DNA from: a virus
Length of the DNA stretch: 64,000 nucleotides
IMG/VR virus record: IMGVR_UViG_3300048839_001249
Coordinates: 1 to 64,000 of that record
Direction: 5' to 3' (one strand)
Shown here: piece by piece, positions 3,180 through 7,101 of the stretch
How positions within the stretch are numbered: position 1 is the first letter of the stretch
Layout of the letters: each line of letters starts with the position of its first letter
Program-made: the position numbers and the translations under genes
Notes under the pieces: model-generated
Database searches by the model: none
What the model saw: only the letters and a program-made list of their open reading frames with translations
What the model was told of the DNA's origin: nothing

Positions 3180-4724
3180 TTATAACTGAACTAAACTGAT
3201 TAACTCCTGATCAAGTGCCATTTGCATAGCTGTTTCAGGTGTTAATTGCTGTCTTTCTTCATTACTCCCACCAAGTATCAGTGAAATAACTCCACCATCG
3301 AAGCCAGACAACATTACAGTACCTTTATCATCAATTGTGGATGGATAATCATTTGTTCTTTCAGCAACATTCCACCAGATAATTGTTATTGGTGGTAAAC
3401 CAACATAGCGAAGTTTTGACATTGCTTCTTCATAATTGGTTTGTGTTGATCCAGATGGATTGAATTGTAAATCACTTACTACAAGCAATGTATCAGGATA
3501 ATCAGAAATTGGAATTTCAGGATTTGCTGTCCTTATTCTTACAATCTCATCAATAACACTCTGAAAGTTAGTTGATCCCCATGCAGTTGATAATCTTTTG
3601 ATTTGTAGTGCTTTTTCAGAAAATGTACCAAGAAGTTTTAATTTCTGTGATACATTACTAAACATGATAACATGATCTTTGAATGCACCTTCATTCATTG
3701 CTGAGAAGAAGATACCCAATGATACACATACATGATATGGTAATATACTTTCTGGCATGCTTGGATATTTATAGGTCATACTGCCTGATGTATCAAGAGC
3801 ACACCATACATTACCTTTGATTCCAGTTTTATTTGTTTTGAGTAACATTTCAAACTGTTTGTCAATGGTTTTGTTTTTGATTGGGTCAATGCTAACTCTT
3901 TTGAGTAATTCAAATGGATAACCATTAAATTTTACAACAGGCTGTTTGTCAAGCCATTCAGCATATGCTTGTTCAAGGTTGTGATTCTTGAGAAATTTAC
4001 TTTCTACCATCAAAGATAATGCTTTTCCTGGAATTTCAGAAAAGTTGATCTGTGAATAATAGTTCTTACTGATGAGTTGTTGCCATTGATGAGCTTTTCC
4101 TCCAGCTTTGAATTTGCGATATTCTTTAGGATTCATATCCATTTGATCAGCAAATTCTTTTGCTAGCTGATTAAGTATTTGAGCACGTTTGGTTTTACAT
4201 TTGCTCTTTGCCTTAATTGCAGGCATATACTTGATTATAAGATCACACATGCTGGAATCACTTAGTCCATCCATCATTAGATTAAAAATCTTTTTATGAT
4301 TGATTTGATTAAGTCCAAGTTCAATGTCCATTATCATGAGTGTCCATAAATCTTTCCAGCTTCCTGCAAGTGGAATTAACCATATGTTCTTGTAGAATAC
4401 TTCTGGATGAAATGAGGAAAGCCATAATAGCCTTTTCAATGATTCATCCTTTGCTCCCTGTCCTTTTTGTGCAGGTGAAGTGGATGAAAGTTGTTTTACC
4501 CTTCTGGTAATCATTCTTAAATAGAATGTGATTTGAAGGAAAAGTAATGCATTCAAAGTCCATAATGCTGATGCTGTAGCCATTATGTCTCCAAATTCTC
4601 TTCCCCTGTAGTTTGCTGCTTTGGAAAAATCATCAACTATGAGATTTCCAGTTGATGAATTAGACACTGCCATATTTTCAGTGAATGTGTCCTTTTTGGT
4701 TGATGCTTTTAAAAATTGATTCAT
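3180..4724 (-). CDS. DUF2828-family protein: Ro60/TROVE-like helical domain plus vWA domain
   Basis: Motifs TENxAxSxSSTG, GQGAKD, GSWKDL, MIDAS DTSGSM, WGSTNFQSV, SDLQF, IIWWN and MLSGF. Confidence 0.85.
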   Translation of the reverse strand: MNQFLKASTKKDTFTENMAVSNSSTGNLIVDDFSKAANYRGREFGDIMATASALWTLNALLFLQITFYLRMITRRVKQLSSTSPAQKGQGAKDESLKRLLWLSSFHPEVFYKNIWLIPLAGSWKDLWTLMIMDIELGLNQINHKKIFNLMMDGLSDSSMCDLIIKYMPAIKAKSKCKTKRAQILNQLAKEFADQMDMNPKEYRKFKAGGKAHQWQQLISKNYYSQINFSEIPGKALSLMVESKFLKNHNLEQAYAEWLDKQPVVKFNGYPFELLKRVSIDPIKNKTIDKQFEMLLKTNKTGIKGNVWCALDTSGSMTYKYPSMPESILPYHVCVSLGIFFSAMNEGAFKDHVIMFSNVSQKLKLLGTFSEKALQIKRLSTAWGSTNFQSVIDEIVRIRTANPEIPISDYPDTLLVVSDLQFNPSGSTQTNYEEAMSKLRYVGLPPITIIWWNVAERTNDYPSTIDDKGTVMLSGFDGGVISLILGGSNEERQQLTPETAMQMALDQELISLVQL

Positions 4725-4754
4725 GTTGCAAAAGTTTAAAGGTTAATTAATGTA

Positions 4755-4889
4755 AATCGTAGTTCAGCAAGTCGTCTATCTCTGTTGCTAATCCGGTATG
4801 CTACTATAAAAGATTGTTTCATTGCTGATTATTTGCTTGGTTTACCACATCAAGGGTGTGTAGTATTCTTTGCTCGACTACCTACGATT
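4755..4889 (-). ncRNA. putative structured RNA directly upstream of the DUF2828 gene
   Basis: 8-bp closing helix 4755-4762/4882-4889 and helix 4764-4770/4822-4828; shares two sequence motifs with 6309-6414. Confidence 0.5.
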
Positions 4890-4898
4890 CTTTGTTTT

Positions 4899-5097
4899 CA
4901 GGTTACTTTTTACATGGTCAGATTAGGAAACTGATTGTTTTAAATTTGCTGTAAGTAACCTTATAATGAACAGGTATCATTTTTGCAACATGCCAAATAT
5001 GTAGTTTTTTGTAAATTGCTGTGTGATACCTTAATGATGTCAGATGTCTGTTTTTGAAATCAACCCAGATTTATTTTTTATTGCTGTAAGACATCTT
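4899..5097 (-). repeat. three tandem ACAGCAA stem-loop units (candidate small RNAs)
   Basis: Units at 4899-4962, 4971-5032 and 5041-5097. Each has an 8-bp stem of different sequence but full complementarity, then invariant ACAGCAA, an A-rich linker and an inner hairpin. Confidence 0.8.
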
Positions 5098-5294
5098 TAT
5101 TTTTCTCTTAATGGTATTAAAATTGTAACAAGTATAATTATTACACTTATTGCAAGAACTGATACACTTATGTCTTGTATTCTTTCACTTACAGGTGTTA
5201 ATTCCATTATATTAACACTTATGAATAAGAATATACCTGATATTAACATCAATAGTACTGATGAAATTAACATTATCTTGTTTTCTTTTTTCAT
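5097..5294 (-). CDS. small two-TM membrane protein
   Basis: 65 aa with two hydrophobic helices. Confidence 0.7.
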   Translation of the reverse strand: MKKENKIMLISSVLLMLISGIFLFISVNIMELTPVSERIQDISVSVLAISVIIILVTILIPLREK

Positions 5295-5303
5295 ATATTA
5301 GTT

Positions 5304-5600
5304 TTATTGCTGTTCGACATCTTGTTTAAGTTTGTTAATAATTTCTTCTAATATTTTAATACGAATTTCATGATCATCAACAGGCCACCAATAGGTATGA
5401 TTATTAGTTATATATATTGGTTTATAATCCATTAACTCTTTTAAACAATTTTCAATATCACAAAAATAGAATAAATTACGCATTGCTTGGTGACATGCAT
5501 TGCATAAACCAACCCAATGATATATACCTATCTCTTTTTTGTATATTTCAAGTGCAAGTTTGTAAATCTTTAATTTTTCTTGCTTAGTTAATTGTTCCAT
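5304..5600 (-). CDS. hypothetical protein (CNAC motif)
   Basis: Likely start MEQLTK at 5600; the track's longer N-terminus runs through the tRNA. Confidence 0.7.
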   Translation of the reverse strand: MEQLTKQEKLKIYKLALEIYKKEIGIYHWVGLCNACHQAMRNLFYFCDIENCLKELMDYKPIYITNNHTYWWPVDDHEIRIKILEEIINKLKQDVEQQ

Positions 5601-5625
5601 TTCTTTAAAAGTTGAACTATTAATG

Positions 5626-5699
5626 TAGAGTAGGTCAGACTCGAACTGACGACCTCTTGGTTCCAAACCAAGTAATCTAACCAACTGATATACTACTCT
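5626..5699 (-). tRNA. tRNA-Pro(UGG)
   Basis: Acceptor AGAGTAG/CTACTCT, D arm, anticodon arm CTTGG-TTTGGAA-CCAAG, T arm GTCAG-TTCGAGT-CTGAC; no encoded CCA. Confidence 0.9.
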
Positions 5700-5707
5700 G
5701 TAAAACA

Positions 5708-5977
5708 AGCCTGCCCAGTGCCACCTGGAATATCTTGATAAAACTCTTATTTTCTCATTTCGGAGTCATCAGAACTGATGTCTTAATATCATCCAACAAA
5801 CAACGTCCTTTGGCAAAGGACTATGATAAGGTTTTGTTCTGTGGTTCTCTTTAGCATACCACCCGTGCAAAGGTTTAAACCTTTATATTGGCTCCTTAAT
5901 TCTAACTCGGAGTGTCCAAGCAATTTACCTATCTTTCAGTTGATAATACAACCCTCACTGTTTGTTTTCAGCAGGCT
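5708..5977 (-). ncRNA. putative ~270-nt structured RNA
   Basis: Ends pair (AGCCTGC 5708-5714 / GCAGGCT 5971-5977); several internal perfect hairpins; no credible ORF. Confidence 0.4.
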
Positions 5978-6080
5978 ATTACCATGCAACTTTATAGACA
6001 ACAGATTTAATTTGCTTACGCAGTTTTCTCTGCTAACGCTAGATGTTGTGCTTGCATAGTTTCTTTGTATTTTAAATTTG

Positions 6081-6247
6081 CAGGAAAGAGTGGACTCGAA
6101 CCACTGACCCTTAGAACCAGTTGTTTTAATTGCTGTTAGTTATCTTCTATCTTTAATGCTCCTGAGCACCTTTACAGCTTTCTAATTCTGTGATAACAGA
6201 TTACTATTTTTTTCACGCTAATGCTCTACCAACTGAGCTACTTTCCT
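6081..6247 (-). ncRNA. tRNA-like RNA whose anticodon loop is replaced by a ~103-nt insert containing the ACAGCAA motif
   Basis: Acceptor AGGAAAG/CTTTCCT, D arm GCTC-AGTTGGTA-GAGC, stem TTAG/CTAA, T arm AGTGG-TTCGAGT-CCACT; insert spans 6115-6217. Confidence 0.8.
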
Positions 6248-6259
6248 AGTTTCCCCATC

Positions 6260-6749
6260 AGACTGCTTCACCTGTGATACAACCTACATTCTTGCAGATT
6301 AATTGTGTTCGTCTATCTACACCAATAAGGAATTTCACCTTTACTATTCTTACTACTTGATAGAAACTAGTATATATCAAGTAGCCATAGTGCCTGCTAA
6401 TGCTCGACTGCCTATCAGCTTTTGGTGTAAATGTCTTAAAAATCAAAGGCTTTGTTTATACTGGCTTACTCAACACAATCTATTTTTCAAAACTGTGCTC
6501 TTTTACTGTGCAGGTGTTCACATGCAATTTGCCAGACAGGTATCAATTTAATGTCTTACCTCTTCATAATGACAACCTTCGATTAGTCTATCTCCAAGCG
6601 GTGATAACCTTCTTTTTGATAGAAATATTATTTTTTCAATGCATAGCTGGCTATACATCGGGAAATTGTTCGCCTTGACAATCTATCCCATATCTCATGT
6701 GAGTGAGATACTAACTGTTTTCTGCCTTCTCACGTTCAGTTATCAGTCT
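6260..6749 (-). ncRNA. putative large (~490 nt) multi-helix ncRNA
   Basis: Pairings 6260-6265/6744-6749, 6269-6274/6511-6516, 6301-6309/6472-6480, 6316-6325/6422-6431, 6353-6362/6375-6384 and 6691-6697/6704-6710. Confidence 0.55.
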
Positions 6750-7101
6750 TTAAGCCCAACAATCCAATGGTTCATTATAATTTGTTCGGCCTATATTTTA
6801 ATAAAGTAGTTCTTTTTCTCTTGTTGTTCCAATGTCCTCATCAGGTAATTCTGGTAGTTGAGGAATGGATAAGGTGGGATCAGGTACAGTAGTATTGTAA
6901 ATTGTACCTTCATCTTCGTTGTCAATGATGTTATTGTCCATGGCTAACTTGTAAAAGTTATGACAGTTTCATATTTGTACTGTCTTTTTGGAATACCGAT
7001 TTCTTTTTTCCATTCTTTAATAATGGATTTCTTTCTGATTTTCTCAACCTTTTTGTTGATTTGTTCTTTGTCTGTTGTCATGTTTTTATTGTTTTATGTT
7101 G

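What the first reader, a model, noticed from the sequence alone, without database searches (positions are those of the whole stretch)
6081..6247. tRNA body with a circularly permuted ACAGCAA module in place of the anticodon loop
Seen: intact acceptor, D and T arms but no anticodon. The insert has the motif's 3' strand first (AGTAATCT-G, 6205-6197) and its 5' strand later (AGATAACT-A-ACAGCAA, 6145-6130); these pair at 7 of 8 positions. The order is the reverse of that in the free hairpins. Established: in YrlA the Ro-binding helix replaces the anticodon arm and the acceptor stem is closed by a loop. Inference: a permuted YrlA analogue with free tRNA-like ends that RNase P and the CCA-adding enzyme could process. 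It supports reading ACAGCAA as the Ro-like binding site.
Basis: partly seen in the sequence, partly recalled or inferred. Interest (0 to 1): 0.82.

Follow-up and report, generated by a model that had tools for sequence, protein, structure and literature searches.

The report
tRNA-shaped RNA with Ro60-type handle
A phage of Flavobacteria-type hosts encodes a tRNA-shaped RNA whose anticodon end is replaced by a conserved "helix plus ACAGCAA" arm; this is most likely the docking handle for the Ro60-like ring protein encoded next door, which would make it a rearranged relative of the Ro60/Y-RNA particles.

Summary
Window 6081-6247 (minus strand) matches the Rfam tRNA model at 47 bits, with about 100 nt where the anticodon loop should be. 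The insert carries the same module as three free hairpins 1 kb downstream, in circularly permuted order.

The helix alone is not beyond chance. Helix plus flanks (A-rich run, CUGU, AAG) arises in 0.5% of shuffles, and the helix forms on its own once the cloverleaf is fixed.

- **Protein next door:** the DUF2828 protein (3180-4724) folds like Ro60; all 12 best PDB matches are Ro60/TROVE.
- **Family:** more than 100 phage contigs carry the module inside tRNA genes, usually at position 28/29. DUF2828 genes travel with it.
- **Free hairpins:** they score just below threshold on Rfam's Dictyostelium Class I RNA model.
- **Link to YrlA:** a related phage (L096) has YrlA-like sealed tRNA bodies inside the same handle.

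Best reading (0.55): a stable tRNA-shaped partner RNA of the Ro60-like protein, not an intron-bearing tRNA. Removing the insert does not give a clean tRNA. Binding and processing are untested, and I found no orthologue of this element.

This scan has already noted the family on many other genomes. I found no description of it in the papers I could search.

The parts
6081..6247 (-). Whole tRNA-shaped RNA gene (167 nt): acceptor 6247-6241 / 6088-6082, discriminator G at 6081, no encoded CCA
   Evidence: Rfam RF00005, 47.2 bits, E 5.8e-7; sequence
6223..6238 (-). D arm (GCUC AGUUGGUA GAGC)
   Evidence: cmscan alignment
6089..6105 (-). T arm (AGUGG UUCGAGU CCACU); variable loop GGGUC at 6110-6106
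   Evidence: cmscan alignment
6218..6221 (-). Anticodon-stem 5' strand UUAG; pairs with CUAA at 6114-6111 and closes the inserted arm
6206..6217 (-). A-rich strand CGUGAAAAAAAU. It fits the family pattern of A-rich bases then U just before the helix. It also contains the possible loop remnant GUGAAAA (anticodon GAA).
   Evidence: Position counts on 39 family members
6196..6205 (-). Helix strand AGUAAUCU followed by GU. This corresponds to the 3' end strand plus CUGU tail of free (Class I-type) modules.
   Evidence: CUGU end described in PMC7919456
6146..6195 (-). About 50 nt joining the two helix strands. Predicted to extend the helix (UUAUC/GAUAG) and form two small hairpins (CUGU..ACAG region and GUGCUC/GAGCAU).
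   Evidence: Constrained and free folds (z -1.7)
6130..6145 (-). Helix strand AGAUAACU (preceded by A, giving AAG), spacer A, and the invariant word ACAGCAA (6136-6130)
6115..6129 (-). 3' linker UUAAAACAACUGGUU back to the anticodon stem. Closely resembles the stretch after ACAGCAA in free module 3 (AUUUAAAACAAUCAG).
4893..5097 (-). Three tandem free modules: AAG, stem, ACAGCAA, linker, inner hairpin, A-rich run, stem, CUG
   Evidence: Rfam RF01414 at 36.8, 17.3 and 27.4 bits (gathering score 41.5); folds; composite test
3180..4724 (-). Gene for the DUF2828/DUF7788 protein: Ro60-like ring plus vWA domain with a DxSxS metal site. Proposed protein partner.
   Evidence: Pfam; PHROG 850; model pLDDT 84.6; Foldseek top 12 matches are Ro60/TROVE, E 8e-8 to 6e-5
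5625..5699 (-). Ordinary tRNA-Pro(UGG) on the same strand of the same RNA gene cluster

Best explanation
The 167-nt gene encodes a stable small RNA with a normal tRNA core (acceptor, D and T arms, free 5' and 3' ends). A long arm stands in place of its anticodon loop. At the base of that arm lies a two-helix junction. One strand is A-rich (GAAAAAAAU). The other carries UA-ACAGCAA-UUAAAA.

This junction is the same module as in the three free hairpins just upstream of the Ro60-like DUF2828 gene, but opened at a different point (a circular permutation).

Proposed mechanism:
- Inferred: the transcript is trimmed like a tRNA.
- Inferred from co-occurrence and the Ro60 fold: the DUF2828 ring protein docks on the helix+ACAGCAA junction.
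- Inferred by analogy with Y RNAs: the exposed tRNA core acts as the effector end, bringing a tRNA-binding host or phage factor to the protein, or gating the protein.

Shown here: the anatomy, the permutation, the Ro60 fold of the protein, and the family-wide linkage.
For: - tRNA core matches at 47 bits, and the tertiary-pair nucleotides U8, A14, G18G19, G15/C48 and the T-loop UUCGA can be read from that alignment.
- Helix plus flanks occurs in 0.5% of shuffles. The helix forms in the constrained lowest-energy fold.
- The A-rich-then-U pattern before the helix matches 39 family members.
- Family evidence: 125 of 141 pattern matches in viral contigs are interrupted or odd tRNA-like genes carrying the module. 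The hairpin covaries, with 7 of 7 pairs showing double changes.
- A DUF2828 gene lies in 31 of 117 pattern-selected stretches, against 1 of 26 control tRNA stretches.
- Both near-complete genomes that I checked further also carry a DUF2828 gene.
- Most loci chosen by the protein alone carry modules beside the gene.
- A cultured Enterococcus phage has three modules directly upstream of its DUF2828 gene.
- The protein has the Ro60 fold.
- Forms with no exons at all (free hairpins) and with sealed acceptor stems (L096; YrlA match at E 2e-6) cannot be introns, so the module has a function of its own.
- Other members also lack an anticodon loop: L004, L039:768, L146.
- A phage Ro60 is known to bind Y-like RNAs encoded upstream of its gene (PMC12135203).
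Against: - I found no orthologue of this particular element, so there is no conservation or covariation evidence for it.
- My covariance model of the embedded module scores it only 13.8 bits, E 0.37, because of the 50-nt helix loop.
- The whole-RNA fold is not unusually stable (z -0.98), and the cloverleaf fold is 4.4 kcal/mol above the unconstrained minimum.
- No expression, processing or binding data exist.
- Most family members regain a perfect anticodon arm when the insert is deleted. That fits splicing at least as well as a permanent handle.
Confidence: 0.55

Rival explanations
1. It is an intron-bearing tRNA gene. The 94-nt module is cut out, by an unknown protein machinery possibly guided by the DUF2828 protein plus a ligase, and leaves a decoding tRNA (GAA, Phe-like).
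For: In 43 family members, deleting the insert restores a 5-bp stem and a 7-nt loop with U33, with many different anticodons. Here deletion after position 38 gives UUAGC.GUGAAAA.UCUAA, close to the phage tRNA-Phe arm UUAGA.CUGAAAA.UCUAA in L021/L025.
Against: - The product here would have a C31-U39 mismatch, G32, and G73 instead of the A73 that tRNA-Phe carries (A73 from my own knowledge).
- The body is at least as similar to phage tRNA-Gly.
- The A-rich run that supplies 'GAA' is a family feature.
- At 94-103 nt the insert is too short for a group I or II intron by my knowledge of their sizes, and no Rfam intron or ribozyme matched.
- I know of no bacterial mechanism that splices in a tRNA stem.
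- The same module exists without exons and on sealed tRNA bodies.
Confidence: 0.12
2. It is a dead tRNA gene, disrupted when a piece of the neighbouring module array recombined into its anticodon loop. It has no function of its own.
For: No orthologue was found. The helix alone is not beyond chance. The model score is insignificant. The 3' part of the insert is a close paralogue of free module 3. The 50-nt helix loop is atypical for the family, where loops of 3-8 nt are the commonest class.
Against: The tRNA core is fully intact at 47 bits in a 31% GC genome. All handle features are kept in register: A-rich run then U, CUGU, AAG, spacer, UUAAAA. L128:6349 is another member with a 36-nt helix loop in a phage that also encodes DUF2828.
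Confidence: 0.15
3. ACAGCAA with its helix is a processing or transcription signal (a nuclease site or promoter-like hairpin) that marks where RNAs of this cluster are cut or started. It is not a protein docking handle.
For: The AAG and CUGU flanks are the mature ends of Dictyostelium Class I RNAs (PMC7919456). The modules sit between tRNA genes and in the leader of the DUF2828 gene.
Against: A signal would not need to be kept inside a closed hairpin within a tRNA arm. It would not need to covary as a helix. It would not be expected to track one particular RNA-binding protein across unrelated phages.
Confidence: 0.08

Closest known systems
YrlA-type Y RNAs with Ro60/Rsr in bacteria and phages (Rfam RF02553; Chen et al. 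2014, PMC4201824; Thermus phage phiLo Ro60 with Yrl1/Yrl2, PMC12135203)
   Same: A small RNA gene on the same strand, just upstream of a Ro60-fold protein gene. It has a tRNA-like D/T core plus a separate helix module for the protein. Several RNA partners sit at one locus.
   Different: The topology is inverted: the ends lie at the acceptor stem and the protein-side helix is closed by a loop. The motif is ACAGCAA beside an A-rich strand, not GNCGAA. The protein is DUF2828/DUF7788, which Pfam does not call TROVE, although the fold matches Ro60. The element has no RF02553 match.
Class I RNAs of dictyostelid social amoebae (Rfam RF01414; Kjellin et al. 2021, PMC7919456)
   Same: A short covarying stem, an adjacent conserved word containing ACAGCAA, and AAG and CUGU flanks. 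The window's free modules score 36.8, 27.4 and 17.3 bits on RF01414.
   Different: All scores are below the gathering score of 41.5. In this element the stem does not join the RNA ends; it is closed internally, and the variable region is a whole tRNA body. The source is a phage, not an amoeba. The known amoebal binding protein is the RRM protein Rnp1A, and no link to DUF2828 is reported.
Phage tRNA genes interrupted at 28/29 by hairpin+ACAGCAA
   Same: The same module inside the anticodon arm of a tRNA-shaped gene, in a genome that encodes DUF2828.
   Different: The insert sits at 38/39 (or replaces the loop) instead of 28/29. No clean anticodon arm remains. The helix loop is about 50 nt instead of the usual 3-8 nt. 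The host phage is crAss-like.

Membership tests
tRNA (RF00005) | Acceptor, D and T arms with conserved core nucleotides | tested here: met
   47.2 bits against a gathering score of 29
tRNA (RF00005) | 5-bp anticodon stem closing a 7-nt loop | tested here: not met
   103 nt stand in place of 9 positions. ARAGORN default makes no call. Only a forced call with an abnormal arm appears when introns are allowed.
YrlA (RF02553) | Encoded near a Ro60 orthologue on the same strand | tested here: met
   1.36 kb upstream of a protein with the Ro60 fold
YrlA (RF02553) | Acceptor-like stem closed by a loop, with the RNA ends in the Ro-binding stem | tested here: not met
   The acceptor stem is open and the handle helix is closed
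YrlA (RF02553) | GNCGAAN0-1G motif and a covariance-model score of at least 69 bits | tested here: not met
   No RF02553 match at E up to 10 in 5500-6800. The motif is absent from the sequence.
Dictyostelid Class I RNA (RF01414) | Conserved word with ACAGCAA next to the 5' stem strand, plus AAG and CUGU flanks | tested here: met
   AAG-AUAACU-A-ACAGCAA and AGUAAUC-UGU; features as described in PMC7919456
Dictyostelid Class I RNA (RF01414) | 6-bp stem joining the 5' and 3' ends of a 42-65 nt RNA; model score of at least 41.5 bits | tested here: not met
   The stem is internal to a 167-nt RNA and the element has no RF01414 match. The neighbouring free modules reach 36.8 bits.
Helix+ACAGCAA handle RNAs of DUF2828 phages (undescribed family) | Helix ending 0-3 nt before ACAGCAA, with an A-rich strand then U before the helix and a U/A-rich stretch after the word | tested here: met
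Helix+ACAGCAA handle RNAs of DUF2828 phages (undescribed family) | Significant match to a covariance model built from 26 embedded modules | tested here: inconclusive
   13.8 bits, E 0.37. The model skips the helix because of the 50-nt loop.
Helix+ACAGCAA handle RNAs of DUF2828 phages (undescribed family) | A DUF2828 gene in the same genome | tested here: met
   Gene at 3180-4724
Group I / group II / bulge-helix-bulge tRNA introns | Catalytic core or bulge-helix-bulge motif at the exon junctions | tested here: not met
   No Rfam intron or ribozyme match. I saw no bulge-helix-bulge by eye at the junctions I wrote out from the sequences.

The most novel reading that the evidence does not exclude
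The helix+ACAGCAA junction is the universal docking site of DUF2828 (Ro60-fold) proteins. Phages graft it onto tRNA bodies to make adaptor RNAs that tether tRNA-handling host factors to the ring, for example anticodon nucleases, or repair and processing enzymes. The orphan Class I RNAs of Dictyostelium would then be the cellular version of the same particle. The window element is the form in which the tRNA keeps free, processable ends.
Probability: 0.25. Interest if true: 0.85.

Novelty: new variant of a known kind. Interest (0 to 1): 0.66.

Why it matters
- **RNA partners for DUF2828:** Ro60/Y-RNA particles are known from animals, some bacteria and a few phages. Here a large, unstudied protein family with the Ro60 fold gains candidate RNA partners. 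DUF2828 is present in about 700 cultured phage records.
- **One handle, three layouts:** the handle is modular. It occurs as a free hairpin, around a sealed tRNA body, and inside an open tRNA.
- **Value of this element:** this genome holds both permutations side by side. That argues the junction works as a folded unit, not as an intron boundary.
- **Link to Class I RNAs:** the resemblance offers a testable lead for an RNA class whose function is unknown and which was reported as unique to social amoebae (PMC7919456).
- **Testable now:** cultured Enterococcus phages carry the same locus.

Tried and rejected
- **Cyanobacterial tRNA intron or small repeat:** my first idea. Dropped once the genome proved to be a crAss-like phage; its portal protein is 46% identical to that of Flavobacterium phage Fpv1.
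- **Group I intron, ribozyme or tmRNA-like readings:** no Rfam support, and reading on from the GCA inside ACAGCAA by eye gave no consistent short tag frame.
- **Suppressor tRNA for a recoded phage:** long ORFs read through in the standard code, and no CUA or UCA anticodon loop can be built.
- **Alternative helix register GUUAUC/GAUAAC (6 of 6):** 3.9 kcal/mol worse in the constrained fold, and it lacks the CUGU and AAG flanks.
- **Single-sequence structure prediction of the protein:** failed at pLDDT 38.7. A 31-sequence alignment solved it.
- **Sequence search of the PDB:** only insignificant Ro60/TROVE matches, E 0.24-0.5.
- **Orthologue hunts:** an exact 3'-half pattern found an unrelated tRNA-Met. 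A protein-guided search of viral and metagenome contigs found related loci that lack this element. A degenerate pattern returned only chance matches.
- **Isotype assignment by similarity:** ambiguous between Gly and Phe.
- **Possible second interrupted tRNA at 91383-91484 of the genome:** no Rfam support.

Full report
**1. What is there**

On the minus strand, 6247-6081 reads AGGAAAG-UA-GCUC-AGUUGGUA-GAGC-A-UUAG, then 103 nt, then CUAA-GGGUC-AGUGG-UUCGAGU-CCACU-CUUUCCU-G. Rfam's tRNA model matches end to end at 47.2 bits (gathering score 29), with 103 nt in place of 9 model positions. ARAGORN in its default mode sees only the neighbouring tRNA-Pro(UGG) at 5625-5699.

The genome is a 92.7-kb virus record with about 31% GC. 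Its portal protein is 46% identical to that of Flavobacterium phage Fpv1, and the other matches are Bacteroides, Cellulophaga and crAssphage records. It is therefore a crAss-like phage of a Bacteroidota host.

**2. The insert**

The insert reads CGUGAAAAAAAU / AGUAAUCU / GU... about 50 nt ...AGA / AGAUAACU / A / ACAGCAA / UUAAAACAACUGGUU.

That alone means little:
- 26% of shuffles of the insert give a 6-bp partner.
- Nearly every ACAGCAA in the window has some 7/8 partner within 110 nt.

What is not chance is the register with the flanks. The three free hairpins at 5097-4893 all have AAG, a stem, 0-2 nt, ACAGCAA, a U/A-rich linker, an inner hairpin, an A-rich run, the second stem strand, then CUG. 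The insert has the same pieces in rotated order: A-rich run plus U, stem strand, CUGU, a loop, AAG, stem strand, A, ACAGCAA, UUAAAA.

I wrote this composite as a test and found:
- Of the 32 ACAGCAA sites in the window, only the four in this cluster and one marginal site pass.
- Only 104 of 20000 shuffles of the insert pass.

The helix is UAGU.AAUC / GAUA.ACUA, 8 of 9 pairs, and continues into UUAUC/GAUAG and two small hairpins. The 70-nt arm has z = -1.7. A rival register, GUUAUC/GAUAAC, is 3.9 kcal/mol worse.

**3. 'No anticodon' needs a caveat**

GUGAAAA follows the 5' stem strand. Deleting 94 nt after position 38 gives UUAGC.GUGAAAA.UCUAA. ARAGORN with introns allowed forces a tRNA-Phe call with an abnormal arm.

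Against a real Phe anticodon:
- The product would have a C31-U39 mismatch, G32 and G73.
- The body resembles phage tRNA-Gly at least as much as tRNA-Phe.
- An A-rich run ending in U before the helix is a position-specific feature of 39 other family members. The GAA is therefore probably part of the handle.

**4. The family**

Of 141 matches, 125 are not ordinary tRNAs.

For 43 of them, deleting the insert restores a canonical anticodon arm. The insert lies mostly at 28/29 or 29/30, and sometimes at 36/37 or 38/39. Others have no anticodon loop, like the window element: L004:12577, L039:768 and L146:1002. L128:6349 has a 36-nt helix loop and an insert at 38/39, and is the nearest analogue.

A short-loop hairpin just before ACAGCAA is present in 45 of 130 distinct sequences, against 10% of shuffles. 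In 26 aligned examples it is 94% paired, and all seven pairs show changes on both sides. Those 26 were chosen for having a hairpin, so that count is biased upwards.

**5. The protein**

ORF 3180-4724 matches DUF7788 and DUF2828 in Pfam and PHROG 850, 'RNA-binding protein'. Folded alone it fails. With 31 homologues taken from the fetched loci it gives pLDDT 84.6 and pTM 0.84. Foldseek then returns Ro60/TROVE structures as the 12 best PDB matches, aligned over the full length, with E from 8e-8 to 6e-5. They include frog and human Ro60, Deinococcus Rsr and Thermus phage phiLo Ro60. The alignment keeps a DxSxS metal-site motif.

**6. Linkage of RNA and protein**

- Stretches picked only by the DNA pattern carry a DUF2828 gene in 31 of 117 cases, against 1 of 26 control tRNA stretches.
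- Five module-bearing records had no such gene in the stretch I held. Three of them have it elsewhere in the record, including both that are at least 90% complete.
- Loci picked only by the protein show free modules immediately beside the gene: L001, L002 and most of L149-L157.
- Cultured Enterococcus phage EA1 has three modules directly upstream of its DUF2828 gene.

**7. Links to described RNAs**

The window's free modules match Rfam RF01414 (Dictyostelium Class I RNA) at 36.8, 27.4 and 17.3 bits, against a gathering score of 41.5. Class I RNAs are defined by a 6-bp end stem, an 11-nt motif next to its 5' strand, an AAG start and a CUGU end. They were reported as unique to Dictyostelia (PMC7919456).

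In L096, whose DUF2828 protein is 33% identical to the window's, three tandem units have the terminal helix plus ACAGCA(A/U). Two of them enclose tRNA-like bodies with full D and T arms and an acceptor stem sealed by a loop; the third is a reduced copy with no D arm. One unit matches Rfam YrlA at 37.2 bits, E 2e-6, below the gathering score of 69.

One handle therefore occurs in three layouts:
- Ends at the handle with a small cargo (Class I-like).
- Ends at the handle with a sealed tRNA cargo (YrlA-like).
- Ends at the tRNA acceptor with the handle closed (the window element).

My model of the embedded form scores best in the window at 4938-4986 (24.4 bits, E 2e-4). That site is the junction between two tandem free modules. 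This suggests the permutation arose by tandem duplication. The same model scores the element itself only 13.8 bits (E 0.37), because it cannot span the 50-nt loop.

**8. Reading**

The module exists without exons and on bodies that cannot be aminoacylated, so it has a function of its own. Its constant companion is a Ro60-fold protein. A phage Ro60 is known to bind Y-like RNAs encoded upstream of its gene and to recruit host PNPase (PMC12135203).

I therefore read the element as a tRNA-shaped partner RNA with the docking handle in its anticodon arm (confidence 0.55). The rivals are:
- An intron-bearing tRNA (0.12).
- A dead tRNA gene hit by recombination with the module array (0.15).
- A processing or transcription signal (0.08).

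For the wider family, the intron question stays open, because most members regain perfect anticodon arms when the insert is deleted.

**9. Limits**

- I found no orthologue of this element, so it has no covariation support of its own.
- There are no expression or binding data.
- E-values from my own model are rough.
- I defined the composite test after seeing the free modules.

**10. Prior notes**

Earlier notes of this scan describe the same handle in many other phage and giant-virus genomes, and reach the same Ro60/Class I reading. I reached the RF01414 and YrlA matches and the Ro60 fold independently here. I found no paper that describes the family.

Noticed in passing
window 5299-5329 (-): A half-module, AAGAUGUCGA-ACAGCAA-UAAAAC, lies at the very end of ORF 5304-5708. 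Its stem strand GAUGUC is the same as in free module 1, 230 nt downstream. Between them lies a small hydrophobic ORF of about 66 aa (about 5295-5095). It may be a module split by an inserted gene, or a leftover of duplication.
   Followed up: partly
window 4938-4986 (-): The junction between tandem free modules 2 and 3 is the window's best match to my model of the tRNA-embedded, permuted form (24.4 bits, E 2e-4). This hints that the permuted form arose from a tandem array.
   Followed up: partly
The insert has no hairpin before the word, and Rfam gives no tRNA match at E up to 1. It is possibly a second degenerate tRNA-like element.
   Followed up: partly
L096:4850-5330 (-): Three tandem units sit downstream of a DUF2828 gene, each with a terminal helix plus ACAGCA(A/U). 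Two enclose tRNA-like bodies whose acceptor stems are closed by a loop; the third is a reduced copy without a D arm. One unit matches Rfam YrlA at 37.2 bits.
   Followed up: yes
L277 (Enterococcus phage EA1, PQ571287.1) 5350-5900: Three ACAGCAA modules with tRNA-like T arms lie directly upstream of the annotated 'RNA-binding protein' (DUF2828) gene, after a run of 11 ordinary tRNAs. This is a cultured system in which the RNAs could be tested.
   Followed up: partly
window 5805-5821 (-): A terminator-like hairpin, GUCCUUUGCCAAAGGAC plus a U-rich tail, lies between the tRNA-shaped gene and tRNA-Pro. It may end the transcript that carries the element.
   Followed up: no
L011:8864 / L026:760 and L024:7893: Other phage tRNA-like genes share the same D arm but have odd anticodon arms: a short UCGCG loop in L011 and L026, and a near-perfect 12-bp palindrome with no loop in L024. 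None has ACAGCAA.
   Followed up: no
window 6260-6749 and 4772-4884 (-): ORF-poor stretches flank the RNA cluster, and earlier notes flagged them as further structured RNAs. Rfam gave nothing significant in 4700-6800, the part of these stretches that I scanned at a permissive threshold.
   Followed up: no
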